A stretch of 64,000 nt of DNA from an uncultured Planctomycetota bacterium (GCA_964385685.1 CAYLQD010000004.1:29397-93396), one strand, 5' to 3'. Positions 23,924-38,713 are shown, counted from the first letter of the stretch. Translations and numbers: made by a program. Notes: a model not told the origin generated them from the letters alone.

Positions 23924-25291
23924 TCACTTGTTCAGCTCGCGGAGCTTCTTCTCGAGCAGAATCTCGTCGTCGCGGATGAGCACGTAGCGTTCGCGACCGA
24001 TCAGCTTGATTAGCCGGCGGATCGCCTGCTCGCGGGTCTCATCGGCATTCGCCTCGTAGCGCTTCCAAAACTGGTCCCACCAGTCGGGCGGCTCGAACTT
24101 CGGGCCGTCGTGTTCTGTCGGGCGGCCGGTCTCCCCTTCCACAACGAGGCTGCCAACGTAATCGGCATCGCGGTATGTCCGGTCGATCTGCGCCCGAACG
24201 GCGGCGATGTCGCGCTCGTTCACGACGCCGTTGCTCGTTGCTTTGTAGTATTGCACGGTCACGCGGATGGGATACTTCGGATCGCGCTCGATCGCCAGGT
24301 TGTCGATCTCCGTGAACGGGCCTTCGACGCGACCGTGGCCGATGACGGCCTCTTCCACATCACTGTCGGACCTTCGGACCACGGCGCTCTCCGCGAGCGC
24401 CATCACCTTGGGCTGTGGCCGCCGCTTGTGCTTTAGCGGCACCTGAATGAGCATCACCATGTTGAGACCGGCCGGGACGGTGGCCTGGTCGCCGCCGGCC
24501 TTTTCTTCACGCACCGGTGGGCCGAAGTCGCTAAGCCGCTGCCCCGTCAAGCTCGCGCGCTGGCCGCCCTGGTTGAAGAACAACCGCTGACCCCACGTGC
24601 GGCCCGCCGCAAAACCATCGCGGACGTTGTCGATCACGGTCGCGCTCGTGCCCTCGCGCGTGGCGAGGACCGTCAGCACCGCGGGATTGCCCCTATACGA
24701 CTGATAATTAAAGACAACGGGATTGAACTCCGCCTTGCCTCGTCTGGGCACGGGAAGGAAGCAGGCCTGGGCGCTAACGAGCGCGTGCGTGTCGCGCTTG
24801 GCGAGCAGCGACGCGCCCTTCCCTTTCCACGAGCCCGGCTTGCTCAGGTGCTTCTGGAAGTTACCGAGGTATTCGCGGAGTGCGACGCGGCGGAGCGAAC
24901 GGCCGGCCTCGTTGCCGACGAGCACGAAGAACTTCTCCATACGGATGTCGGCCGTCTTGTCGGAGAAGTTCGGGTGGCGGATGACGGGCATGCACGTAAG
25001 CCGGTACTTCTCGGTCCGCGGGTCCATGTACTGCACCTGTATTGTCATGTCGGAGATATTGGGCCCGACGGCCGAGTTCTTGAAACGCCCCGTGTCCTCC
25101 CACGTGAGGTTGATGAGGTTAAGCTGATGTTTGCGGACGAGCGCCTGGGCGCGCCGGTCGCGGACCATGTTGGCCGTCGCCTGGATGACGTGCCAGTGGT
25201 CGCGTTCCGGCGCAACCCTCGCTTCTCCGGCGGACGCCGTCGCCCCTGCGACAAGGATCAGCACAACGACAAGGTATCGTTTGGCGAACAT
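23924..25291 (-). CDS. hypothetical secreted protein
   Basis: 455 aa. N-terminal signal peptide (LVVVLILVAGATASAGEA). No recognisable domain. Confidence 0.55.
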   Translation of the reverse strand: MFAKRYLVVVLILVAGATASAGEARVAPERDHWHVIQATANMVRDRRAQALVRKHQLNLINLTWEDTGRFKNSAVGPNISDMTIQVQYMDPRTEKYRLTCMPVIRHPNFSDKTADIRMEKFFVLVGNEAGRSLRRVALREYLGNFQKHLSKPGSWKGKGASLLAKRDTHALVSAQACFLPVPRRGKAEFNPVVFNYQSYRGNPAVLTVLATREGTSATVIDNVRDGFAAGRTWGQRLFFNQGGQRASLTGQRLSDFGPPVREEKAGGDQATVPAGLNMVMLIQVPLKHKRRPQPKVMALAESAVVRRSDSDVEEAVIGHGRVEGPFTEIDNLAIERDPKYPIRVTVQYYKATSNGVVNERDIAAVRAQIDRTYRDADYVGSLVVEGETGRPTEHDGPKFEPPDWWDQFWKRYEANADETREQAIRRLIKLIGRERYVLIRDDEILLEKKLRELNK

Positions 25292-25375
25292 CGCTCGTTT
25301 CTCCTTAACTTCATGGACGGTGCTCTACCCTCTTAGACGCGAGCACGACGACGAAGTTCCGACTTCTTCGCGGCT

Positions 25376-25412
25376 ACATGTTGATGAAAATGCGGAAGGT
25401 TTCGCGGCCGAA
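25376..25412. repeat. 37-bp direct repeat, left copy (ACATGTTGATGAAAATGCGGAAGGTTTCGCGGCCGAA)
   Basis: Matches 29951-29987 at 35/37 positions. On the minus strand it encodes a duplicated C-terminus …FGRETFRIFINM plus stop, identical to the end of the membrane-protein gene at 29949-30569. Confidence 0.85.
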
Positions 25413-25521
25413 GAGCGACCGAACGTGCTTGCCAAGAGCCGAGGGGGCCTCTACAATACTCCCGTCCGGCGCGACGCTGGGGCGCCCGAGTCGACAACCC
25501 ATTACGCAGGGAAGCAGTTCA

Positions 25522-28251
25522 TTGCCTGAGCAGATCAAGGACCTCGACAACCTCGAGCCCATCGATCATGCGGTGATCGCGAAGCCGCACACGCCGGCCT
25601 ACAAGATGCACCGCTACTTCGCACGGCGGCCGTGGAGCGTCTTCCGAGCGCTCATCGAGCACTACTCCAATCCTGGCAGCATTGTGCTCGACCCCTTCTG
25701 CGGCGGCGGGGTGACCGTCGTCGAGGGACTTCGGCTCGGCCGCAAGGTTATCGGCGTGGACTTGAACTCGCTGGCGACGTTCATCACGCGCATGGAGGCG
25801 ACCGACGTTGACCTCGATGAATTGCAGGCGGCCTTCGACGCGGTCGAGGCGGCCTGCCGCGAGAAGATCGAAGCGCTCTACATGACCACCTGCCCGAAGT
25901 GCGGCGAGCGTGTCGCAGCCGACTGGTTTGAGTGGAGCAACGTCGTCGAATGTCGAGAGTGCGGCCGGGTCGTGGAACTCCACCGGGCCGAGCGGGTGCG
26001 CAAGGGCGAGAAGATCGCTGGTGTGTCGGCAGGGGAGTACAAGTGCTACCACAAAGGTTGCGAGGCCGCTTGGCGCCCCTCGCAGTGTGACCGAGTCGAT
26101 CCAGTGCTCGTCCGCGTACACGTCAGGTGTCCGAGATGCAAACACCGGGGGGACTTTGGCCCAGCGGCGGATGATCTGCGATTGGCGGATTCCATTCGTA
26201 GCGACCTCGATGCGTGCATGAGGCGCGAGAGACTGTGGTACCCGGACATCGAGATGCCGGATTGGTGGGATCTGCGCCGTCCGTACAATGCGCACATCAA
26301 GCGGTTCGCCCACCTGTTCACACCTCGGAATCTGCTGGCGAACGCTGTCCTTGCAAAGAGCGTGACGGAGGGCCCTTTCGAGGGTCAGGTGCAGAACCTT
26401 CTTGTGTTTGCCTTCAGCGCGTCGCTCCGATTCACCAACCGGATGGTCTTCCGCAACCCGGGCTGGCAAGGCGGAAAGCCCATCGAATGGGCGAGCAGTA
26501 CGTACTGGCTGCCGGAAGTCTTCTGCGAAATAAACACATGGGCCGCATGGGAGAACAGACGAAGGTCGGTAACCCGGGGCAAGCAGTACTCCTGTGAGGA
26601 AATCGGGGACAAATCGGTTCTATGCGACCGCTACGAAGACCTGCGCACCGACGGAACAGCGTTTGTGTGGGCGGGCAGTTCGACCGACCTTCCGCTGCCC
26701 GACAACTCAGCGGACGTGGTCATCACCGACCCGCCTTACGGGAACAACGTCCTGTACGCCGAACTCTGCAATTTCTACTGGGCATGGGTCGGGCGTATGC
26801 TGGAATCGAACGGCCTGATCGACGACTCGGAGGAGGCCATTGTCAGCAAGAAGCATGACAAGGGACTCGCGGAGTATCGGGACCTGCTTTTCCGGGTCTT
26901 CAAGGAATGTCATCGCGTCCTCAAGCCGGGCCGATGGATGGTCATGACGTTCCACAACAAGGAGTTCCAGGTCTGGAATGCCATCCATCTTGCGGCACAC
27001 GACGCCGGGTTTGTCCTGGCCGAGCACGATGGGATGATCTACCAGCCGCCGATCAAGAACTACACGCAGACGATCCAGACCCGAAGAAGCGGTTCGATGC
27101 TCGGCGATTTCATCCTCTCATTCCAGAAGGTGGAGGGGCCGCCGGCGTTCAGGCAGATCGAGCACGCAGAGATCGGGCGGCAGGTCGAGCGCCTGGCGTC
27201 AGAAGCGGTCATGCACCATCACGGCGCCACGCTTTCGATGATATACATGAAGCTGATGCCGTGGCTTCTGAACAACAACCTGCTCGACCAAATCGGCGAG
27301 AAAGAGGTGGTTCCGTTCCTCCGCGGGAACTTCGAGGAGCGGGACGGTGTGTGGCACGTGAAGGAGGTGCAGGGGGCAGAGCTGCGGCAGGCGATGGAGG
27401 AATACAGCCGTCAGCACTACAAGGCATCCTACGAAGAACTGAACTTCGTGCCGGTTGAGGCGCGCATCGAGTACCTCGTCAAGCGCCTGCTCTACGGAAA
27501 GGGCTACGCGACCCAGGACGAGGTCCTGAACACGATCTACACGAACCTCATCAACTCAAACATGGCTGAGGCGCGCGAAATCCACTTGGTGCTCAACAGC
27601 ATAGCCCAGCTCGTGCCCCTGTCCGACGTAACGGGCGGCGGGCGGAAGAAAAAAAGCGGCCGGAAGGTCTGGCGCCTCAAGGAAGACATCGAGCGCGACT
27701 CGCTTTTCCGCGACGTAGAGGGCGCCGACGTTCAGTATCGGCTCGCAAGCTCGGAGGAATCCGACCACGACCTGGCAATCGCGCGCCTGGTCGAAATGGC
27801 GGCGATGCAAGGCATGAAAGCGCACATCGGCAAGACGGAGCAGACGAAGTACACCGAGTTCCGCATCATGACGAGCGACCTGCCGCAGCGCGTGGCGGGA
27901 ATGCCGAAGGCGGCGCGCGAAATCGTGGAGCAGATCGACGTCCTCTGGCACAATGGCGGGAAGGGGGTCGTCGCCGCGTTCGAGGTCGAGCGGACGACGA
28001 CCATCACGAGCGGGATTGACCGCTTTCGCAACCTCCTCGCGGCGGCGCCGGACATCGAGGTCGAACTGTACCTCGTTGTGCCCAAATCCCGCGCGAGGGA
28101 AGTACGGGCCAAGATTGGCTCGCCCGCCAATCGCAAGGACGGCCTTGACAAGAGAATCGGCTACATCTTTCTGGAAGACTTGAACATTCGGAATCGCAGC
28201 GCGTCCAAGGTCGATTTCGAGAAAATCAAGCACAAGGTCAACGGCAAATGA
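25522..28251 (+). CDS. DUF1156-like N6-adenine/N4-cytosine DNA methyltransferase with Cys-rich insert and ~450-aa C-terminal extension
   Basis: MHRYFARRPWSVFRALIEHYSNPGSIVLDPFCGGGVT (DUF1156-like 'WWARRP' segment plus FxGxG motif I). Downstream VVITDPPYGNNV (DPPY motif IV). Several CxxC pairs lie between (CPKCG…CRECG, CPRCKH). The maximal ORF begins at 25378, inside the direct repeat; a likelier start is TTG 25522 (GGGAAG upstream). Start uncertain. Confidence 0.75.
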   Translation: MPEQIKDLDNLEPIDHAVIAKPHTPAYKMHRYFARRPWSVFRALIEHYSNPGSIVLDPFCGGGVTVVEGLRLGRKVIGVDLNSLATFITRMEATDVDLDELQAAFDAVEAACREKIEALYMTTCPKCGERVAADWFEWSNVVECRECGRVVELHRAERVRKGEKIAGVSAGEYKCYHKGCEAAWRPSQCDRVDPVLVRVHVRCPRCKHRGDFGPAADDLRLADSIRSDLDACMRRERLWYPDIEMPDWWDLRRPYNAHIKRFAHLFTPRNLLANAVLAKSVTEGPFEGQVQNLLVFAFSASLRFTNRMVFRNPGWQGGKPIEWASSTYWLPEVFCEINTWAAWENRRRSVTRGKQYSCEEIGDKSVLCDRYEDLRTDGTAFVWAGSSTDLPLPDNSADVVITDPPYGNNVLYAELCNFYWAWVGRMLESNGLIDDSEEAIVSKKHDKGLAEYRDLLFRVFKECHRVLKPGRWMVMTFHNKEFQVWNAIHLAAHDAGFVLAEHDGMIYQPPIKNYTQTIQTRRSGSMLGDFILSFQKVEGPPAFRQIEHAEIGRQVERLASEAVMHHHGATLSMIYMKLMPWLLNNNLLDQIGEKEVVPFLRGNFEERDGVWHVKEVQGAELRQAMEEYSRQHYKASYEELNFVPVEARIEYLVKRLLYGKGYATQDEVLNTIYTNLINSNMAEAREIHLVLNSIAQLVPLSDVTGGGRKKKSGRKVWRLKEDIERDSLFRDVEGADVQYRLASSEESDHDLAIARLVEMAAMQGMKAHIGKTEQTKYTEFRIMTSDLPQRVAGMPKAAREIVEQIDVLWHNGGKGVVAAFEVERTTTITSGIDRFRNLLAAAPDIEVELYLVVPKSRAREVRAKIGSPANRKDGLDKRIGYIFLEDLNIRNRSASKVDFEKIKHKVNGK

Positions 28252-29942
28252 GCGGACTTCTGTCGCCAGACCAGGTTGATGAGCGCCGGGAGTTGTTTCG
28301 GCGGTGCCTGAACATGGACATCCTTCGAGCGCAGCGCTATGCGGTAGAACTCTCCGAAGAGAAGTTCCTCGAAGCCATCAACGGCACGGCGCGAGACCTG
28401 CTCGGGATGAACATGAAGGTTCCGGCTGATTTCCCTGACAACTATTTCGGCCAGTACTACACGATTCAGAACCGGACGCTCGCCGCCGGCAACATCTGGG
28501 ATCAGTTGGAAAACGACATCGTGCAGTGTCTCACGGCTGAGCGGGAGACGCGCGAAGCCCTGGAGTACTTCCTGAATCAGCCGGGATACGAAGCAGACTT
28601 CACTGGGATCAAGGCGCGATTCAACCGATGGCGGAATACACTGGATGTCCTCCTCGGCTTCCGCCTTATCCGCAAGATGCCAAGCCGGACCCGGGACGTC
28701 ACGACCTACGCTCTCTATAACGAGATGGCCCCCTTGCTGAGACGGGTCCTTTCGTCTTCGGCGGCCGACGACCTGCCGGTCATCAACTCGGAAGCGGCGC
28801 AGGCCGAGCTTGCGAACGTCCACGAAATGGAGCGCGAATACGAGCAGTACCTCGAAGGACTGGTCGAGCAGCGCCTGGACGAGACCGTCGAGTTCGGACG
28901 GCAGCACATGAGCTTAGGACTCGTCGCCACGTACTTCAAGGAACTCTTCGGCGGCCTGCTTTATTTCGACGTGCTGCTCTCGTTGGCCCAGCAGTACGGC
29001 ATGACCGCCACGGACATCGTGAATCCCGAGGGCACCAAGGCCGGCTCGACGGGCTTTCATCTGGCGCTCTTCGGCGCTCCGGGAACCGGGAAGACTTTTG
29101 CCATCAAAGACATGATTATGGGCGATGAAAGCAGGACCATACGGCCCCACGGGCTCCCGGGCCTCAACCGGTACTGCGGCGGGATGACGGCGGCAAACTT
29201 CATCCGCATCGGCGAAGCGTACCAGGGCAAGCGTTTCAACTTCGTTGTCACCGAGTTCAACGACTGGTTCCGGTACAAAGGGATGGTCGAACCGCTCAAG
29301 TTAGCCCTTGAGCAGGGCACCATCCGTTACGAGACAAAGACCGAGACTATCGGACCGTACAAATTCAGTTGCTATTTCTCCACCAACTACAACACGAAAA
29401 CAGACAAGGAAGCAGGCTACAGGGTCACGGTTGCTGATCCGAACTTCAACGCCATAGAGGACAGGATGCTCGTTCGGATGCACCGTATGACGAAGGAACG
29501 GCTCGGAGAACTAAGCCGCAGCCAGCGCGATCTCGCGATGGGACGCATGAAGATGCGCCTGGCGGACCAGATAAGAGATCACCTGACCCTTGTATACGCT
29601 GTCCAGACGGAACATCCCCTGGTGAGTGCGCGGTTCCCCAGAAAGCAAGTGGTCTTGAGAGAGGGCTTCTTTGACGCGCTGGAGCACGCCCAGGAAGCTC
29701 TTCTTCGCCAGATAGAGGGGCGTATCCTCTTCAGCATCCGCGTGCGGCAAAACGCCATCAAGTTGGCCGGGGCGTTGGCACTCCTATCCTCTTTCCGGGG
29801 CGACCTCGCACGGCTCGAGATTCCCGATGAGGCGCGCGACCTTGCGCTCCGCTTCTTCGTGGAGGAGATCGCCGTCCGACAGAAGGTTGCCGTAGACGTC
29901 AACGCTGTTCTCGGCGAGCTGCCTGCCGGGCTCGCCAAGTGA
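28248..29942 (+). CDS. P-loop (AAA+-like) ATPase with ~270-aa N-terminal domain of unknown function
   Basis: Walker A LALFGAPGTGKTF, Walker B-like FNFVVTEFNDW, sensor-like CYFSTNYNT. The ATG overlaps the MTase stop (ATGA), implying translational coupling. Confidence 0.7.
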   Translation: MSGLLSPDQVDERRELFRRCLNMDILRAQRYAVELSEEKFLEAINGTARDLLGMNMKVPADFPDNYFGQYYTIQNRTLAAGNIWDQLENDIVQCLTAERETREALEYFLNQPGYEADFTGIKARFNRWRNTLDVLLGFRLIRKMPSRTRDVTTYALYNEMAPLLRRVLSSSAADDLPVINSEAAQAELANVHEMEREYEQYLEGLVEQRLDETVEFGRQHMSLGLVATYFKELFGGLLYFDVLLSLAQQYGMTATDIVNPEGTKAGSTGFHLALFGAPGTGKTFAIKDMIMGDESRTIRPHGLPGLNRYCGGMTAANFIRIGEAYQGKRFNFVVTEFNDWFRYKGMVEPLKLALEQGTIRYETKTETIGPYKFSCYFSTNYNTKTDKEAGYRVTVADPNFNAIEDRMLVRMHRMTKERLGELSRSQRDLAMGRMKMRLADQIRDHLTLVYAVQTEHPLVSARFPRKQVVLREGFFDALEHAQEALLRQIEGRILFSIRVRQNAIKLAGALALLSSFRGDLARLEIPDEARDLALRFFVEEIAVRQKVAVDVNAVLGELPAGLAK

Positions 29943-29948
29943 CCCAAT

Positions 29949-30569
29949 TCACATATTGATGAAAATGCGGAAGGTCTCGCGGCCGAACAATGTAACGAGA
30001 GTCACAACAACGCCCGCGAGCAGCACGCCGGCGAGGATGCCGGGGAACGCCCGCCGCGCCCGCACGTGCATCAGGAACGCGAGCAGCGAGCCGGTCCATG
30101 CGCCCGTCACGGGCAAGGGAATCGCCACGAAGATCGCGAGCCCGAGCGCTTCGTACTTCTCGACAAGGTCCCCTCCCCGCCGCCGCGATCGCTCGAAGAC
30201 CCATGTGAAGAACCGGTGCCAGAGCTTCGACCGCTTCATCAGAAAGCTTGAGACGGGGCCGATCAGCAGGATGATGGGGATGATGGGGATCAGGTTGCCG
30301 ATGACGGACAACACGTATGCCTGCCACCACGGCATCTTGTAGTACAGGATCGCGACGGGGATCGAGCCGCGGAGTTCGAGGATCGGAAGGGTCGCGAGGA
30401 TAACGACCACGGCCGACGGCCCGGCGCCCTGCCCCTCCAGCCATCGGACCAGCTTCGGCGGCTCACTCGTCGCCTCGTCGGCGGCGCTCAGGGCGGCCTG
30501 CAGCGGGCCTGCGAGAAGGACGACGCAGAGAAGAACGGCCGCACAGAGGGATGCTCGGGGCGTTCGCAT
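29949..30569 (-). CDS. small multidrug-export-like membrane protein (COG2426/Sm_multidrug_ex-like)
   Basis: Maximal ORF runs to 30707, but ATG at 30569 overlaps the bioA stop (TGATG). LPILELRGSIPVAI…LGLAIFVAIPLPVTGAWTGSLLAF resembles the Sm_multidrug_ex family. Confidence 0.65.
   Translation of the reverse strand: MRTPRASLCAAVLLCVVLLAGPLQAALSAADEATSEPPKLVRWLEGQGAGPSAVVVILATLPILELRGSIPVAILYYKMPWWQAYVLSVIGNLIPIIPIILLIGPVSSFLMKRSKLWHRFFTWVFERSRRRGGDLVEKYEALGLAIFVAIPLPVTGAWTGSLLAFLMHVRARRAFPGILAGVLLAGVVVTLVTLFGRETFRIFINM
29951..29987. repeat. 37-bp direct repeat, right copy (ACATATTGATGAAAATGCGGAAGGTCTCGCGGCCGAA)
   Basis: It is the authentic 3' end (last 12 codons + TGA) of the membrane-protein gene 29949-30569. 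Confidence 0.85.
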
Positions 30570-31930
30570 CAGTCGTGTTGCTCCGTCACTTCGCGGATCG
30601 AGTCGTAGAGGATATCGAGCATCCGGTCGAGGACGTCCTCCGTCATGCACAGAGCGGGCATAATGACGATTACGTTGCCGAGCGGCCGCGTGATGAGACC
30701 GCGACACCGCGCCGCCTGCGTCACGCGGATGCCGATCTTGTCGGCCGGTTCGTATTCCTCCTTCGTATCGCGGTCGCGGACAAGCTCGATCCCTGCGATC
30801 AGGCCGCGTTGGCGGATGTCGCCGACATGCGTCAGCTCGCGGAATCCCTCCAGCCGCTGCGCCAGTTGCTCAATTCTCGGTTGGATCGCATCGAGCGTTC
30901 GGTCTTTTTCGAAGATGCCGAGCGTCGCCAGCGCGGCCGCGCAGCCGAGTGCGTTGCCCGTGTAGGTGTGGCCGTGGAAAAACGTCTTTGATTCCTCATA
31001 CTCCCCGAGGAACGCGGCGTAGATCTCATCGGTCGTGAGGGTCGCCGCGAGCGGCAGGTACCCGCCCGTCAGGCCCTTGGCGAGCGCCAGAATGTCGGGC
31101 GACACGTCCTCGTGCTCGCACGCGAACATCTTCCCCGTGCGGCCGAAGCCCACAGCGACCTCGTCGCAGATAAGGAGGACGTCGTACTTGTCGCACAGCG
31201 CCCGAACGCCGGCGAGGTAACCGAGCGGGTGCACGATCATACCGCCTGCGCCCTGCACCAGCGGCTCCATCACAACGGCGATAACCTCGTCGGCGCGGTC
31301 TTCGAGCAGCTCGTCCATCGCGCCGAGGCACGCCATCGAGCACGTCTCCGGCTCGCGGCCGAGTGAACAGCGATAGCAATACGGCGCCGGGGCTCGCAGC
31401 GTCTCAAAGAGCAACGGGCCATAGAGGCCCTGGAAGACCGGGATGCCGCCGACGCTGACGGCGCCGACCGTGTCGCCGTGATAAGCGAGGTCGAGGGCGA
31501 CGAACTTCGTCCGTCCCTCTTCCCCCTTGAGCCGCCAGTATTGGAACGCGATCTTGAGAGCGATCTCCACCGCCTCCGAACCGCTGTCGGAGTAGAAGAC
31601 CTTGTTGAGTTCGCCGGGGGCAAGCCGGGCGAGCCGCTCGGCAAGCTCGATCGGCGGCGGTGCCGTCGTGCCCAGCATAGTCGCGTGTGCGATCCGGCCG
31701 AGCTGGTCGCGGACGGCCGCGTCGATCTCCGGGCGGCGATGCCCGAACAGATTGCACCAAAGCGACGACACGCCGTCGATGTAGGCGTTGCCGTCAGTGT
31801 CGTAGAGCGTCGTGCCCTCGCCGCGCTCGATGACAAGCGGTTCCTCCGCGAGCCAGTCCCGCATCTGAGTGAAGGGATGCCAGAAGTGTTCCTTGTCCTT
31901 CTCGGCGAGTTCGCGCGTGCGATCGGTCAT
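30569..31930 (-). CDS. bioA: adenosylmethionine-8-amino-7-oxononanoate aminotransferase
   Basis: FWHPFTQM, SSLWCNLFGH, AFQYWRLKGEE, YHGDTVGAVSVGG and a CDEVAVGFGRTG (PLP-Lys region) closely parallel E. coli BioA. Confidence 0.9.
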   Translation of the reverse strand: MTDRTRELAEKDKEHFWHPFTQMRDWLAEEPLVIERGEGTTLYDTDGNAYIDGVSSLWCNLFGHRRPEIDAAVRDQLGRIAHATMLGTTAPPPIELAERLARLAPGELNKVFYSDSGSEAVEIALKIAFQYWRLKGEEGRTKFVALDLAYHGDTVGAVSVGGIPVFQGLYGPLLFETLRAPAPYCYRCSLGREPETCSMACLGAMDELLEDRADEVIAVVMEPLVQGAGGMIVHPLGYLAGVRALCDKYDVLLICDEVAVGFGRTGKMFACEHEDVSPDILALAKGLTGGYLPLAATLTTDEIYAAFLGEYEESKTFFHGHTYTGNALGCAAALATLGIFEKDRTLDAIQPRIEQLAQRLEGFRELTHVGDIRQRGLIAGIELVRDRDTKEEYEPADKIGIRVTQAARCRGLITRPLGNVIVIMPALCMTEDVLDRMLDILYDSIREVTEQHD

Positions 31931-34769: not shown

Positions 34770-34915
34770 GGGGCTCGCGCGGGCATGCCGCCCACGCCGT
34801 TCGCGCGGGCATTATAGCATTTTGCGCGCCGCCGCTTCAACCGACACCCCCGCCCTTCGAGCGGTGGCCGGCGGGCTCCGTGTGTTTCGTGGCAAGCAAG
34901 CCACCGCTCACTGAC

Positions 34916-35160
34916 CGCTGATCACTGCTTTCTTGTGCCTTGCTTGCCCTGAGCTTGTCGAAGGGGTGCCTTGGTGGCTGCAGAAGCCGTTGCCGTTCTT
35001 CGTGCTCTTCGTGAGCTTCGTGGTTGCTGAGGCCGTTGCCGCTCACCCCTGTTCCCTGCCCCCTGATCACTGCTTCTTTGTGCCTTTGTGCCTTGGTGGT
35101 AAGGAAGCCGTTGCCGTTCGCCTCCGTTCCCTGCTCCCTGATCACTGCTTCATTCGGTTC
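34916..35160. repeat. imperfect tandem repeats (~75-bp unit, ~2.3 copies, first copy with internal ~70-bp expansion) in 1.1-kb non-coding region
   Basis: The unit starts CTGATCACTGCTT(C/T)… and contains CCTTGGTGG…GAAGCCGTTGCCGTT…GTTCCCTGC(C/T)CC. Copies begin at 34916, 35061 and 35136. A GAAGCCGTTGC fragment recurs at 35597. Confidence 0.6.
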
Positions 35161-35908
35161 AGGGCGGATGTCCGGTCCTATGTCACGTCATCGCAGGACG
35201 GCGAAACTCCTTTCCGCGTTTGGCTCGAGGAAGTGCGAATGCGCGAGGTCGCGACGGGGTCGCTCGCCCGGTCGCTCCGCTTGCCAGACGGCCCAGACGT
35301 GGCCGGAAAAATCGGCCCGCCCAAACAAACCGTGCTCATCCGGCAGCAGACTCCCAGGCATCCTTCCACAAGCGGCCCGTACGCAGAAAACCGGGACTGG
35401 CACACCGTTGCCTGTCCCGTTTTCTGCCGGGCCGCCTCGCGTCGCTCTTTCAGACGCGCGCTCCTTCCAGGCGTCATCCCTTTCTACCCAACCCGCACGC
35501 TTTGAACCTCCATCCTCAGAAACACTCACCGCCGAGATCGCTGAGGACGCAGAGAGGAACATGAGCCGGTCTCTGCGATCTCTGCGTCCTCCGCGGTGAA
35601 GAAGCCGTTGCAGCGGGAAACCGTCCCCGTAGAATGCATACACCACAAATCGCCCCAATGCAAGCCCTCCAGCAAGAAATACCACACATTTCTTCGCAAG
35701 ATCTGGCTAACGGATGTTGTGGGCGTATGATACGCCGATGTCGATTGTGTGGCCTTTTTTGGCCAGGACGGAGATTCACGGCCTTTAGACGCAGATAAAC
35801 GCAGAGCGCGCAGACCCGGAAAGGGCCAGGGGGCCGCTTTTGGAGTGCGGCGGCACGACGCCGCTTTCAGTGCGCCCGGAGGGTGGAATTAGGTAAGACG
35901 TCCCCCGA

Positions 35909-36601
35909 TTAGGCCAGTCCCGTCTTCACATCCTTGAACCCGGGCGTAAGCGCTCGGGGGTCAGATTTGGCAAGTTGGACAAACGCCTTGAGGATATCTA
36001 TCGCGGCTACGCGGGCCGGGGCTCGTCGTGTCTTCTTCTTTTTCAGTCGGCCCAGCCATCCGTGGCTGAAGTTCTTGTGCCAGTCCACGAACTCGTCCCA
36101 GGTCCACCATTTCCCGGGTTTGGCGAAAGGCTCACACAGCACAAAGGCCATCCGATCCTTCTTGTCATCGGCATCTTGGTAGCCTGCGATGATCGCATCT
36201 TCCATCCACGGCGCTCTTGCCGGCGTACCTGAGTCGAGAGCTCTCTTCAGTGCCTGCCACGCTCCCTCAGGAGTCTTATACCGACGCCAATCCCACGCCG
36301 CCCCGGTGGAGTCTTTCACGCGCTGCCAAAGACCTTCCGGCGGCGTGCAGAACGCATAATCATTCAAGGGCTGGTGTTTCATCGGTTTGTAGACGAAGCT
36401 AGACCCAAAACCAGACATCGTCATCAGCGTCTCATAGTCCATCTTATTCCAGCCGGCCGCCTTCATACACACCAGGTCGCACATGATCCGTGTCATCGGC
36501 TGCCAGTACGTCTTGTCTGTATACTCGTTGACCCGATCAAAGATGTTCGATACGCGTTTCAGCAACACACGCTTCTGTTTCGTGTGCTTTGACTTGCTCA
36601 T
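35909..36601 (-). CDS. hypothetical protein (paralog 1 of a two-member family; Trp-rich C-terminal domain)
   Basis: 230 aa. Shares a conserved ~80-aa domain with the next gene (AWDWRRYKTPEGAWQALKRALDSGTP…EDAIIAGYQDADDKKDR…WWTWDEFVDW). Codon usage differs from neighbours (AAA/TTT/TAT/GAT codons). Confidence 0.5.
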   Translation of the reverse strand: MSKSKHTKQKRVLLKRVSNIFDRVNEYTDKTYWQPMTRIMCDLVCMKAAGWNKMDYETLMTMSGFGSSFVYKPMKHQPLNDYAFCTPPEGLWQRVKDSTGAAWDWRRYKTPEGAWQALKRALDSGTPARAPWMEDAIIAGYQDADDKKDRMAFVLCEPFAKPGKWWTWDEFVDWHKNFSHGWLGRLKKKKTRRAPARVAAIDILKAFVQLAKSDPRALTPGFKDVKTGLA

Positions 36602-36674
36602 TTGCTCACCTCCTGTTCCCTTTTCTAACCATTCGCTTCAGGCGCGGCTCCCAGCCGTCGCCTGGAAGCGGTTG

Positions 36675-37676
36675 TTAGCCAACGGCCAGTTTCTCCATGC
36701 TTGCCAGAATCTTCTTCTCGGCCTCAAGAGCCGTGCCAACAGTGTCTCTGATAGCTTGCCGACCCGACTCGGTATCGCGCCTATTGCCGAACCCCTCGCT
36801 GGCAAACCGCCCCAAGCTCTCGGCGGCAGTGCGATAGTTCCCGGCGATATCGCCCACCAGGGCGGCCACGTCGCCATTTAGCTTCTCTGCCGCATCGCCG
36901 AAGTAATCGGCGAGGGCCGCGCGCGCGTTATGCTGGAAGTTGATCGCGATGCAGTCGATGTATTCATTCGGGATTTCGATATCCGGCTGCAGCAAGTCGG
37001 CCAGGAACCGCTCGAGGGCGCTGATGCCGTAGTTGGCCGAGACGCCAAAGCGTCCCACGGCGTGGTGGTTGTCCTGCCAATCAACAACCCGATTGGCCAG
37101 AATCCTCACGGCCTCCTCGCGCTGGGGCTTCCGCGTCTTCTCCGCCGCAAAGTACATGCCGCCCCCAGGAAGCGGCACCCATTGGGGAACCCACTCCGAA
37201 AACTTCTCCCAAGGCACCTCGCCGTCCAGGGCTGGGCCGCCTACGCCGCGTGCGCGCACGGACCTGTCTGCAACGTCATCGGCATCCGTGTAGGCATACA
37301 CGACCGAGTCTTCCGGGCCGGCCATCTTCACTGGGTTGCCTGCATCCAGCCCGGTCTTGATGAAATCCCACGCTTCCTGTGGGTCGGCGGTCCACGTGGC
37401 CTCAAAGCGGCACCCCAGCAAGCCGCCGGCGCGCTGTGGCAGGTCGATGTTGGACGAGTAGACACTGGCGAACTGGCCGCGCATGTAACAGAATGCCAGC
37501 CCAAGCCCGTCCGCGGCATGCGTTTCGCCCCAGGCGGTATCGGTATGCCCTGCTGCCTGCACCAGCAGATGCAGCACCTTAACGCCGCTGATGTTATGGG
37601 TATCGAGAATCGCTCTGTTGGCATCAAACAGCGCGTCCAGATTCAGTTCCATACGACCTTGGCTCTGGTGGGACAT
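36675..37676 (-). CDS. hypothetical protein (paralog 2; homologous to 35909-36601 over most of its length)
   Basis: 333 aa. EATWTADPQEAWDFIKTGLDAGNP…EDSVVYAYTDADDVADR…VPWEKFSEWVPQW aligns with paralog 1. Confidence 0.5.
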   Translation of the reverse strand: MSHQSQGRMELNLDALFDANRAILDTHNISGVKVLHLLVQAAGHTDTAWGETHAADGLGLAFCYMRGQFASVYSSNIDLPQRAGGLLGCRFEATWTADPQEAWDFIKTGLDAGNPVKMAGPEDSVVYAYTDADDVADRSVRARGVGGPALDGEVPWEKFSEWVPQWVPLPGGGMYFAAEKTRKPQREEAVRILANRVVDWQDNHHAVGRFGVSANYGISALERFLADLLQPDIEIPNEYIDCIAINFQHNARAALADYFGDAAEKLNGDVAALVGDIAGNYRTAAESLGRFASEGFGNRRDTESGRQAIRDTVGTALEAEKKILASMEKLAVG

Positions 37677-37746
37677 GTGCTCTTCCTCCTTCTGTCCATT
37701 GCGCTAACGCGAAGCTAAGCCGCGGCGTGTTCGCCGTCGGCTACGG

Positions 37747-38175
37747 CTACTTGTTGGCTGTTTCCCTGTATGCCTCCAGCAAGGCAGAAAGAAGAACTCC
37801 GTCGATTGTGGCGCTCTCGAGGTCGCAGCCCTTGATAGCGATGCCGGACAGGTCGCAATCCGTGAACGTGCTGCGGTTGAGATCGCACTCAACGAACTCC
37901 AAGGGCTCCTGCTTCGGAATGTTCCCGTCTTCGTCGGGGTGAAGTGAGAGATGCTTGAACTTCGCTCCACCCATTGTGACGGAGTGCATCGTGATGTTGG
38001 ACAGATTCACGTCCGCGAACGACGCGTTGACCATGTTGACGTGGTCGAACCTGGCTTCGGCCAACGCGACCTGCTGGAACGAACTGCGCGACATGTTGAG
38101 GTCTTCGAACTCGGACCCGGGGATGCCGCCGTATTTCACGACGAGCTTCTCGTCATTCTGAGGCTTCACTTCCAT
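37747..38175 (-). CDS. pentapeptide-repeat protein
   Basis: Tandem A(D/N)LSxx pentapeptide units (FQQVALAEARFDHVNMVNASFADVNLSNITMHSV…DCDLSGIAIKGCDLESA). AAAGGAG Shine-Dalgarno before the ATG. Confidence 0.7.
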   Translation of the reverse strand: MEVKPQNDEKLVVKYGGIPGSEFEDLNMSRSSFQQVALAEARFDHVNMVNASFADVNLSNITMHSVTMGGAKFKHLSLHPDEDGNIPKQEPLEFVECDLNRSTFTDCDLSGIAIKGCDLESATIDGVLLSALLEAYRETANK

Positions 38176-38713
38176 TTCGATCTCCTTTCATTCAGCCAAC
38201 GCTTGGGCTGAGGTGCGCGGTCCCCCCGTGCATCATGACCGGCCTGCGCGCTCAAGACAGCCCTTCCGCCGACGATGAAGGTCCCTGATGCCGATTCGGG
38301 GGAGTACCTGATTATGCGCCGCCCCCGGTGAAGTGTCAAACGCTTTCCACCCTCAAGGAGGTGACCCATGACGAAAGACAAAGAGACCGAAAAGAAGCCT
38401 CTGAAGAGGAATCGCGTCGCCCCTCATGGCATCCCCCTCGGGCCCAGCAAGCAGGTCGAGGTGATAGCTCTGGGGACACAATACTCAACTCCGCCCGGGT
38501 TTCTTCGCCGAGGGTCTCGGTCCGGGCTTCCGCCTGCGAAGTACACGGCCCCAGCGATCGGCACGATCATGCCCCCATCGAACCGTCCTGTCAAGGACGA
38601 TAGTCTGATGTCTCCAGACTCCCGCGCCGCATCCCATCTTGACCACCGCGCCGCCCCCTGATAGACTGCTTCGACCGAATCGGACGCCGCAACTCACTGG
38701 GAACCGAAGACCT

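What the first reader, a model, noticed from the sequence alone, without database searches (positions are those of the whole stretch)
25376..29987. Two-gene MTase+ATPase cassette inserted into the 3' end of a membrane-protein gene, bounded by 37-bp direct repeats
The last 12 codons plus the stop of the COG2426-like gene (29949-30569, minus strand) occur twice: at 29951-29987, continuous with the gene, and at 25376-25412, an orphan copy. The copies match at 35 of 37 positions, and the stop codon differs (TAG versus TGA). Exactly 4.5 kb lies between them, holding only two translationally coupled genes (DUF1156-like DNA methyltransferase and P-loop ATPase). The two genes are flanked by unrelated housekeeping-type genes; whether their codon usage differs from the flanking genes was not assessed by eye. 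Duplication of a target gene's 3' end is the hallmark of site-specific integration (attL/attR), yet no integrase or excisionase is present. The element is therefore either a minimal in-trans-mobilised defence cassette or a decayed island. The cargo looks like a restriction-modification/BREX-like defence module that does not fit a described type.
Basis: partly seen in the sequence, partly recalled or inferred. Interest (0 to 1): 0.85.

Follow-up and report, generated by a model that had tools for sequence, protein, structure and literature searches.

The report
Restriction-type gene cassette inserted at a gene end
A 4.6-kb, two-gene restriction-modification-like cassette (a DNA methylase fused to a nuclease, plus a new MCM-like ATPase) was acquired horizontally and sits at the end of a membrane-protein gene, which now ends in a foreign copy of its last 12 codons while its own original end lies orphaned on the other side of the insert.

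Summary
The 37-nt repeat (25376-25412 and 29951-29987, 35/37) is unique in the window. Three independent assemblies show both copies.

Relatives have uninterrupted sites, so the 4575-bp segment is an insertion. The orphan copy is the native gene end. The gene-continuous copy came in with the cassette: all 6 differences over 14 codons are silent (P about 4e-5), and a diverged relative (L181) has the same junction between the gene end and the ATPase end.

Cargo:
- A 909-aa N6_N4 methyltransferase (FxGxG, then a zinc-ribbon target-recognition region, then DPPY). It is fused to a winged-helix plus PD-(D/E)xK nuclease domain (Pfam NmeDI_C).

This gene pair recurs in many uncultured Planctomycetota, candidate phyla and archaea, in varied genomic contexts. 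It is not DUF1156/MANTIS, BREX or a classical Type I-III system.

No integrase lies within 10 kb. The insertion enzyme is unresolved. Insertion of restriction-modification units with direct repeats over 30 bp and no mobility genes is already documented, so the insertion mode is a known kind. The cargo is an undescribed variant of ATP-dependent restriction-modification.

The parts
23924..25291 (-). Left flanking host gene (455 aa, no Pfam family). In relative L012 it directly follows the membrane-protein gene.
25374..25417 (-). Orphan copy, the native 3' end of the PF06695 gene: stop TAG (25374-25376), the last 12 codons (25377-25412, within the 37-nt repeat 25376-25412), and 5 further nt (CG CTC) that match relatives' genes. 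It is contiguous with native downstream DNA; the motif GCTCGCGTCTAA is shared with L012.
25418..25521 (+). Left non-coding end of the cassette. It has a promoter-like site, TTGCCA-17-TACAAT, at 25429-25457. The TTGCCA -35 element is shared with cassette promoters in L093, L105, L108 and L113.
25522..28251 (+). Methyltransferase-nuclease fusion gene (909 aa, TTG start). Motif I LDPFCGGG lies at about 25684-25707. A variable zinc-ribbon target-recognition region covers residues about 100-400. Motif IV DPPY lies at about 26728-26739. Residues about 640-909 (27439-28248) form a winged-helix plus PD-(D/E)xK nuclease domain (Pfam NmeDI_C) with invariant D806, E821 and E823.
28248..29942 (+). MCM-like AAA+ ATPase gene (564 aa, short form). 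Walker A GAPGTGKT is at residues 276-283 (about 29073-29096). Walker B is VVTEFNDW (E336). Invariant N380, R406 and R498 are candidate sensor and arginine-finger residues. The gene overlaps the methyltransferase gene by ATGA.
29943..29948 (.). 6-nt spacer between the ATPase stop and the stop of the membrane-protein gene. The same junction occurs in L181 (ATTGGATCA there, ATTGGGTCA here).
29949..29987 (-). Gene-continuous copy: stop TGA plus the last 12 codons (contains the right repeat 29951-29987). It is foreign-type, sharing GAG, AAT and TGA with L181, and was brought in with the cassette.
29949..30569 (-). Target gene: PF06695 (Sm_multidrug_ex, COG2426-type) membrane protein, 206 aa. Its start overlaps the stop of the upstream aminotransferase gene (30569-31930).

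Best explanation
**What happened (shown).** A self-contained 4.6-kb restriction-modification-type cassette was acquired horizontally. It inserted at the 3' end of a conserved membrane-protein gene (PF06695). The incoming DNA carried its own copy of that gene's tail directly behind the ATPase gene. Recombination in or next to this short homology placed the cassette between the gene body and its native tail. The 11 identical bases TTCGGCCGCGA upstream of the first silent difference are the likely crossover zone. The gene now ends in the foreign tail, which encodes the same amino acids, and the native tail is orphaned 4.5 kb away.

**How it got in (inferred).** The simplest path is a Campbell-type single crossover of a small circular form. 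The enzyme is unknown. It could be a recombinase supplied in trans or host recombination.

**What the cargo does (inferred from domains, folds and gene neighbourhoods).**
- The methyltransferase marks host DNA at a motif read by its variable zinc-ribbon region.
- The fused winged-helix/PD-(D/E)xK domain cuts unmarked DNA.
- The MCM-like AAA+ ring ATPase supplies ATP-driven loading or translocation that couples recognition to cleavage, as motors do in Type I/III, McrBC and BREX-like systems.
For: **It is an insertion.**
- L012 has aminotransferase, membrane-protein gene, 81-nt spacer, 455-aa gene with no cassette. An in-silico empty site aligns colinearly with L012 across the junction.
- L184/L185 and L182/L183 also lack the cassette.

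**The orphan is the native end.**
- It shares GAA and TAG with L012.
- It is contiguous with the conserved downstream motif.

**The gene-continuous copy is foreign.**
- All 6 nucleotide differences over 14 codons, stop included, are silent (P about 4e-5 by simulation). Both copies therefore evolved as working gene ends in different genomes.
- L181 has the same junction of gene end, 6-nt spacer and ATPase end. There the membrane-protein gene differs by dS 0.63. The 33-codon ATPase remnant has pS 0.66 and dN 0.07.

**The cassette is foreign and autonomous.**
- Its GC and GC3 are lower than the flanks.
- It has its own promoter-like site.

**The cargo is a mobile, conserved pair.**
- The methyltransferase::NmeDI_C gene and the ATPase gene are adjacent in unrelated neighbourhoods in Planctomycetota, candidate phyla and archaea.
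- The methyltransferase target-recognition part diverges faster than the rest: 48-55% against 72-75% identity.
- The ATPase also partners other restriction modules: an Eco57I/MmeI-like enzyme, a split methyltransferase, and an Mrr_cat protein.

**Folds.**
- The nuclease domain model has pLDDT 84.8. Its top hits are N.BspD6I, SdaI, NgoMIV and FokI.

**Precedents.**
- Restriction-modification insertions with repeats over 30 bp and no mobility genes (PMC2853133).
- The e14 prophage, with its icd/icdC alternative 3' end (PMC13626634).
Against: **Insertion.**
- No recombinase, circular form or parent element was found.
- The closest empty site is only 85% identical at protein level in the target gene. 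The pre-insertion sequence is therefore inferred, not observed.
- The 37-nt core occurs in no other cassette locus.
- The one other repeat-flanked cassette (L113) uses a different repeat.
- L181 is a 2-kb contig in a rearranged context, so it cannot be told whether it is a shared or an independent insertion.

**Function.**
- No activity data exist.
- The nuclease has D...ExE rather than D...ExK.
- In Bathyarchaeia the ATPase family sits in conserved synteny without any methyltransferase. The ATPase is therefore not exclusively a restriction component.
- The window's ATPase is the short form, lacking the C-terminal HEPN-like domain of its closest relatives.
Confidence: 0.72

Rival explanations
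1. Dedicated site-specific integration. The cassette would be a minimal integrative element (CIME-like). Its attP is a coding mimic of the membrane-protein gene tail. It is integrated and excised by a tyrosine or serine recombinase encoded elsewhere, or since lost.
For: - The repeat covers exactly the coding end plus the stop, and restores an identical protein tail, as with e14 in icd.
- The copies differ only silently.
- The same junction occurs in a second, diverged lineage, L181.
- Both ends are very tight (6 nt and 104 nt), as expected of a small circle with a single intergenic region of about 155 nt.
- The target core TTCGGCCGCGA-ACCTTCCG is conserved among relatives.
Against: - There is no integrase or excisionase within 10 kb, and no recombinase motif in the window by a crude scan.
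- No homologous cassette elsewhere carries this core, and none is visibly linked to an integrase.
- L113 is flanked by an unrelated repeat.
- The ATPase family is absent from viral, plasmid and phage collections.
Confidence: 0.3
2. Homology-facilitated illegitimate recombination of linear DNA. The donor would be a related lineage in which the cassette already lay tail-to-tail with the membrane-protein gene. One end recombined homologously within the gene or further upstream. The other end joined illegitimately 14 codons inside the recipient's gene, leaving the native tail as an orphan. No att site is involved.
For: - L181 shows that such a donor-type arrangement exists in a related lineage.
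- The foreign and native tails differ about as much (roughly 4 of 10 silent sites) as the orthologues do between these lineages (pS 0.43-0.46).
- There are no mobility genes.
- The orphan is native-like through 25417.
Against: - It does not explain how the donor's own 6-nt tail-to-tail junction arose.
- The duplicated segment ends exactly at the stop codon, which is a coincidence under this model.
- No identity breakpoint is visible along the gene when compared with L181. The data are too sparse to exclude one.
Confidence: 0.3
3. Plain 'insertion with long target duplication'. Both repeat copies would be duplicated from the recipient's own sequence at the time of insertion, as proposed for restriction-modification units in Helicobacter and Haemophilus.
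For: It fits the published criteria: R and M functions, under 20 kb, repeat over 30 bp, no mobility genes, and repeats that align to a single copy in the empty genome. L113 shows a perfect 45-nt repeat around a homologous cassette.
Against: Six differences, all silent, cannot plausibly arise after the duplication, because one copy is non-coding (P about 4e-5). The foreign-type tail plus junction also pre-exists in L181.
Confidence: 0.08
4. The cassette is not a defence system. The MCM-like ATPase would be the replication helicase of a small integrated replicon, and the methyltransferase-nuclease a selfish addiction or homing module.
Against: There is no origin, initiator or recombinase. The ATPase family is absent from viral and plasmid collections. 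It is fixed next to restriction-type enzymes in many chromosomes.
Confidence: 0.1

Closest known systems
Restriction-modification gene complexes inserted with long direct repeats and no mobility genes (Nobusato 2000; Furuta, Abe and Kobayashi 2010, PMC2853133)
   Same: A small R+M unit (4.6 kb) is flanked by direct repeats over 30 bp that align to one copy in an insert-free relative. There is no integrase or transposase. The repeat overlaps the 3' end of a gene, as with the 46-bp repeat overlapping 15 bp of HI0105. The insert has deviating GC.
   Different: Here the two copies differ only by silent changes, and the foreign-type tail pre-exists next to the cassette in another lineage. One copy was therefore imported rather than duplicated from the target.
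e14 and phage 21 integration into icd, with an alternative 3' end (icdC) (Hill et al. 1989; PMC13626634)
   Same: The element carries a substitute 3' end for the target gene. The original end is left as an orphan pseudogene at the far side. The differences between the two ends are conservative.
   Different: e14 is a 15-kb prophage with its own integrase and excisionase. Here there are only two cargo genes and no recombinase.
Type IIG/IIC single-chain restriction-modification enzymes (MmeI, Eco57I, BpuSI)
   Same: A methyltransferase, a target-recognition region and a PD-(D/E)xK-type nuclease sit in one polypeptide. The target-recognition part varies between close homologues.
   Different: The domain order is reversed, with the nuclease at the C-terminus. 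The methyltransferase is of the PF01555 N6_N4 family (motif I, then target-recognition region, then motif IV), not gamma-class PF02384. An obligately linked AAA+ ATPase gene is present.
BREX BrxL, and McrBC/LlaJI-type AAA+ motor-driven restriction
   Different: There is no Lon-like domain, and no BrxC, PglZ, BrxA or BrxB. No McrB or McrC is present. The ATPase family has no sequence-detectable relation to any of them.
MANTIS / Gao_RL (DUF1156 methyltransferase, DUF499 ATPase, DUF3780/3870 protein, helicase-nuclease) (bioRxiv 10.64898/2026.09.23.753747)
   Same: An alpha-like permuted N6-adenine methyltransferase (FxGxG then DPPY) works with an AAA+ ATPase. This offers the alternative idea that the ATPase loads the methyltransferase.
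   Different: MANTIS has four genes and an ORC/Cdc6-clade DUF499 ATPase. Its nuclease is a separate PLD-helicase protein. The window's proteins fail the family models.

Membership tests
Integrase-mediated integrative element (attL/attR) | Direct repeats at both ends that match the target site | tested here: met
   35/37 repeat at 25376-25412 and 29951-29987
Integrase-mediated integrative element (attL/attR) | Uninterrupted target site (attB) in related genomes | tested here: met
   L012, L184/L185 and L182/L183
Integrase-mediated integrative element (attL/attR) | Integrase or excisionase encoded in or next to the element | tested here: not met
   Precomputed Pfam lists for all called genes within 10 kb show none. 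No tyrosine or serine recombinase motif in the 64 kb by a crude regex scan.
Integrase-mediated integrative element (attL/attR) | Same att core used by related elements, or independent insertions at the same site | tested here: inconclusive
   L181 shares the junction of gene end and ATPase end. The core is absent from all other cassette loci, and L113 has a different repeat.
Integrase-mediated integrative element (attL/attR) | Excised circular form (attP) detectable | not testable with these tools
   This needs the raw reads of samples 3300009128, SAMN10231893 and SAMN10231894.
Restriction-modification unit inserted with long target duplication (Furuta 2010 criteria) | Insert holds R and M functions, is under 20 kb, has a repeat over 30 bp and has no mobility genes | tested here: met
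   Methyltransferase plus nuclease domain, 4575 bp, 37-42 nt repeat, no mobility genes (criteria)
Restriction-modification unit inserted with long target duplication (Furuta 2010 criteria) | Both repeat copies derive from the recipient's target sequence | tested here: not met
   Six differences, all silent (P about 4e-5). The foreign-type tail is present in L181.
DUF1156 / MANTIS (Gao_RL) | Methyltransferase reaches the DUF1156 anti-phage equivalog model | tested here: not met
   NF042963 scores 58.3 bits against a cutoff of 1000. PADLOC DUF1156_MTase gives only 9.7e-11.
DUF1156 / MANTIS (Gao_RL) | DUF499 ATPase, DUF3780/3870 protein and helicase-nuclease partners | tested here: not met
   The ATPase has no Pfam, NCBIfam or PADLOC hit. 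Only two genes lie between the repeats.
BREX (type 3, PglXI) | PglXI-type methyltransferase | tested here: inconclusive
   PADLOC PglXI gives 1.8e-60, covering profile positions 189-714 of 919. This is a partial match across the shared methyltransferase core.
BREX (type 3, PglXI) | BrxC/PglY and PglZ (plus BrxA, BrxB, BrxHII) in the locus | tested here: not met
   None of these are among the genes within 10 kb.
Type IIG/IIC restriction-modification fusion | SAM-binding motif I and catalytic motif IV intact | tested here: met
   LDPFCGGG and DPPYG are invariant in 11 homologues. PF01555 gives 9.6e-21.
Type IIG/IIC restriction-modification fusion | Nuclease domain of restriction-endonuclease fold in the same chain | tested here: met
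Type IIG/IIC restriction-modification fusion | Sequence-specific methylation and cleavage activity | not testable with these tools
   This needs expression, a methylome and cleavage assays.
MCM-clade AAA+ ATPases | AAA+ core with MCM-type fold | tested here: met
MCM-clade AAA+ ATPases | Sequence membership (Pfam MCM) and conserved catalytic residues | tested here: inconclusive
   No Pfam MCM hit, and no MCM among 187 HMMER-detectable clusters. Walker A K282, Walker B E336, N380, R406 and R498 are invariant in 60 sequences.

The most novel reading that the evidence does not exclude
The segment would be a minimal, recombinase-less integrative defence cassette. It would be a circle of about 4.6 kb carrying only a methyltransferase-nuclease gene, an MCM-like ATPase gene, a promoter and a coding mimic of about 45 nt of a host gene's tail. 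It would be repeatedly captured at that gene in different lineages. Its cargo would be a previously undescribed class of ATP-dependent restriction-modification system. In it, an MCM-type ring motor, rather than an SF2 helicase or McrB, would drive a single-chain methyltransferase-nuclease. Such systems would be widespread in uncultured Planctomycetota, candidate phyla and archaea.
Probability: 0.25. Interest if true: 0.8.

Novelty: new variant of a known kind. Interest (0 to 1): 0.6.

Why it matters
**Mobility.** This locus gives an unusually clean natural record of how a restriction-type unit moves without its own mobility genes. It has all of the following:
- empty sites in relatives;
- a native orphan tail;
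- an imported tail distinguishable only by silent changes;
- a decayed sister copy in another lineage.

This bears on the long-standing question of how restriction-modification units spread as selfish elements.

**Cargo.** The locus also points to a two-gene system present in over 1000 metagenomic proteins and in 355 of 185,579 species genomes. Current defence catalogues (PADLOC 2023), Pfam and NCBIfam do not name its ATPase. An MCM-type motor paired with a single-chain methyltransferase-nuclease would add a new motor class to ATP-dependent restriction. The pair is compact enough to test directly in E. coli.

Tried and rejected
- **Chance or interspersed repeat: rejected.** Zero matches were expected by chance. 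There are only two copies in the window and none in 180 other loci.
- **Assembly artefact: rejected.** Three independent assemblies carry both copies.
- **Methyltransferase start at the ATG inside the repeat (25378): rejected.** Homologues align from the TTG at 25522.
- **DUF1156/DUF499/DUF3780 (MANTIS), BREX, MADS, Hma and McrBC: family models or partner genes fail**.
- **Closer empty sites or closer cassettes: none found.** The best target-gene relatives are 87% identical. The best ATPase relative is 77% identical.
- **A common flanking repeat or att site in other cassette loci: only L113 has flanking repeats, and with a different sequence**.
- **A conserved non-coding cassette end shared with the window: none beyond a TTGCCA -35 element**.
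- **Identity breakpoint along the target gene against L181, to locate a donor tract: no resolution**.
- **Viral contigs, plasmids and phages searched for the ATPase: no match**.
- **Two look-ups intended to annotate the rest of the window failed.** The ORF starts did not match the called genes. Absence of a recombinase beyond 10 kb therefore rests only on a crude motif scan.
- **The AlphaFold-database fold library was unavailable**.
- **Sequence search of solved structures with the ATPase gave nothing meaningful**.

Full report
**1. Observation**

The repeat is real and is located as stated.
- 25376-25412 and 29951-29987 match at 35 of 37 positions, 4575 nt apart.
- The window has no other match at up to 3 mismatches; none was expected in 100 shuffles.
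- On the minus strand both copies read FGRETFRIFINM followed by a stop: TAG for the orphan and TGA for the gene.
- Two genes lie between the copies. They overlap by ATGA, and the second ends 6 nt before the target gene's stop.
- Three independent assemblies (one JGI and two ENA) carry both copies. This excludes an assembly artefact.
- The core is absent from all other loci fetched.
- Cassette GC is 0.59-0.61 and GC3 0.77-0.81, below the neighbouring core genes (0.64-0.69 and mostly 0.83-0.91). Codon usage differs modestly, p = 0.007.

**2. It is an insertion**

The closest relatives of the flanking genes have uninterrupted sites.
- L012: target gene 85% and 455-aa gene 71% identical at protein level. 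It has aminotransferase, membrane-protein gene, an 81-nt spacer and the 455-aa gene. An in-silico empty site built from the window aligns colinearly with L012 through the gene tail, the TAG stop, a conserved GCTCGCGTCTAA motif and the start of the 455-aa gene.
- L184/L185 (82%) and L182/L183 (88%) also lack the cassette. There the gene is followed directly by a thioredoxin gene. The spot downstream of this gene is therefore variable.

**3. Which copy is native**

- The orphan is contiguous with native downstream DNA. It shares GAA and the TAG stop with L012.
- Its similarity to relatives' genes runs 5 nt beyond the 37-nt repeat (CG CTC, 25413-25417).
- The gene-continuous copy has GAG, AAT and TGA.
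- Over the 14 codons, including the Leu codon and the stop, the copies differ at 6 positions, and all are silent. Random substitution gives this with P about 4e-5.
- Both copies therefore diverged while serving as working gene ends, that is, in different genomes. The orphan has had little time to decay.
- This rules out a simple duplication of the recipient's own sequence.

**4. A sister junction**

L181 is a 2-kb contig whose target gene is 87% identical (dS 0.63).
- It ends ...GAG ACC TTC CGC ATC TTC ATC AAT ATG TGA ATTGGATCA.
- That is followed by the reverse complement of the last 33 codons of the ATPase: 29 of 33 amino acids identical, pS 0.66, dN 0.07.
- Unrelated, repeat-rich DNA follows.

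So the junction of gene tail, 6-nt spacer and ATPase end is old and occurs in a second lineage. There the cassette has since been mostly deleted. The window's lineage acquired the cassette together with a foreign tail of this type.

**5. How it got in**

Two mechanisms fit the data.
- **(a) Campbell-type crossover.** A small circular form would carry a tail mimic of about 45 nt between the ATPase stop and its promoter. A single crossover would occur within the 11 identical bases TTCGGCCGCGA. On this reading each repeat copy is a hybrid. The reconstructed mimic (CTC...GAG...AAT...TGA) matches L181's tail at every discriminating position. The enzyme would be a recombinase supplied in trans, or host recombination.
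- **(b) Homology-facilitated illegitimate recombination.** Linear DNA would come from a related donor that already had the tail-to-tail arrangement.

Points bearing on the choice:
- No integrase or excisionase lies within 10 kb.
- A crude motif scan finds none in the window.
- The ATPase family is absent from viral, plasmid and phage collections.
- A homologous cassette in a Pirellulales genome (L113) is flanked by a different repeat: 45 nt perfect, plus an 18/19 continuation. This argues against one dedicated att site.
- A 'decayed island' is unlikely, because only 104 nt and 6 nt of non-coding DNA remain at the two ends.

Insertion of restriction-modification units with direct repeats over 30 bp, some overlapping gene 3' ends, and without mobility genes is a documented class (PMC2853133). 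Replacement of a gene's 3' end by an element-borne copy is known from e14 in icd (PMC13626634).

**6. The cargo: methyltransferase-nuclease**

Gene 1 encodes 909 aa.
- It has N6_N4 methyltransferase motifs in the order FxGxG (LDPFCGGG), then a poorly conserved region of about 300 aa rich in CxxC pairs, then DPPYG.
- Its C-terminal 270 aa carry Pfam NmeDI_C in precomputed annotations.
- D806, E821 and E823 (IDVLW...FEVE) are invariant.
- The best defence-library hit is PglXI (1.8e-60, partial). DUF1156 models fail: 58 bits against a cutoff of 1000.

**7. The cargo: ATPase**

Gene 2 encodes 564 aa.
- It has no Pfam, NCBIfam or PADLOC family.
- It has invariant Walker A (GAPGTGKT) and Walker B (VVTEFNDW). 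N380, R406 and R498 are also invariant.
- By sequence the family is isolated: 187 clusters at 50% identity out of 1.84 billion, with no MCM among them.

**8. Distribution**

- The ATPase has over 1000 homologues. It occurs in 355 of 185,579 species genomes.
- The hosts include Sedimentisphaerales, Phycisphaerae, Pirellulales, candidate phyla and many archaea.
- In Planctomycetota, in the other bacterial loci examined and in some archaea, the ATPase gene directly follows the methyltransferase::NmeDI_C gene, in unrelated neighbourhoods.
- The methyltransferase recognition part diverges faster than the rest. This is typical of specificity switching.
- Elsewhere the ATPase partners other modules:
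  - a split N6_N4 methyltransferase plus a small protein;
  - an Eco57I/MmeI-like enzyme;
  - an ATP-cone/Mrr_cat protein.
- In Bathyarchaeia the ATPase lies in conserved synteny without any methyltransferase. Its role may therefore be broader than restriction.
- The closest relatives are 818 aa long, with a C-terminal domain bearing an invariant RNxAAH motif. The window has the short form, as do several other lineages.

**9. Mechanism proposed (inferred)**

- The methyltransferase marks self DNA at a specific motif.
- The fused nuclease cleaves unmarked DNA.
- The MCM-like ring ATPase loads or translocates on DNA and couples recognition to cleavage.
- An alternative, by analogy with MANTIS, is that the ATPase loads and activates the methyltransferase (bioRxiv 10.64898/2026.09.23.753747).
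- All catalytic motifs are intact, and a promoter-like site lies inside the cassette. The system is therefore probably active.

**10. Verdict**

- The insertion mode belongs to known kinds, with the notable twist of an imported tail.
- The cargo is an undescribed variant of ATP-dependent restriction-modification.
- Interest is moderate to high (0.6).

Noticed in passing
P0006, P0040, P0044, P0050, P0059, P0070 (loci L093, L101-L113), residues about 560-818: Long-form homologues of the cassette ATPase carry a C-terminal extension of about 255 aa with an invariant [FY]RNxAAH motif. This resembles the HEPN Rx4H RNase signature. The window's ATPase lacks the extension. In L097 a separate 375-aa gene follows the ATPase gene instead.
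   Followed up: partly
L113 6792-6943 and 12527-12589: A homologous cassette in a Pirellulales genome is flanked by a perfect 45-nt direct repeat plus an 18/19 continuation. The left copy is interrupted by 88 nt. The repeat contains a hairpin and lies just past the 3' end of a convergent 400-aa gene. There are only two copies in 18.6 kb.
   Followed up: partly
L130-L180 (Bathyarchaeia loci): The ATPase homologue (41-51% identity) sits in conserved synteny with a 550-aa coiled-coil protein, a sugar nucleotidyltransferase and a small membrane protein. No methyltransferase is present. This suggests a role outside restriction in these archaea.
   Followed up: partly
L181 159-275 and 952-1427: The contig with the decayed cassette has a tandem duplication of about 55 nt of the target gene's 5' end. 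It has no aminotransferase gene upstream. Several copies of a unit of about 36 nt (GTGCCCAGAGTTCGTCCAAGCTCCGGTCGCACCGGA) lie after the ATPase remnant. The locus is heavily rearranged.
   Followed up: no
window 34901-35161: There are three to four imperfect 75-nt tandem-like repeat units in the gap between the TrkH gene and the next gene (families D2-D4).
   Followed up: no
window 35500-38200: A lower-GC stretch (0.55-0.62) holds genes ending in TAA or TAG: a BtrH_N-like gene, a 325-aa hypothetical gene and a pentapeptide-repeat gene. It may be another acquired segment.
   Followed up: no
L093 12544-13179; L105 6634-6716 and 12856-12900: REP-like hairpin repeats (GCCCGCC-N9-GGCGGGC) cluster around cassettes in Sedimentisphaerales contigs.
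   Followed up: no
P0475, P0478, P0485, P0500, P0502: The N-terminal 200 aa or so of the ATPase (helical plus winged-helix-like) also occurs alone or in other protein architectures. It is therefore a separable module, possibly the partner-binding or DNA-binding part.
   Followed up: no
L093, L105, L108, L113, about 60-90 nt upstream of the methyltransferase start: The cassette promoters share a conserved cagTTGCCAAtt-N17-tGGTAGgTTGG element and a GGAAGGAGCTACG ribosome-binding region. The window keeps only the TTGCCA -35 element and starts with TTG instead of ATG.
   Followed up: partly
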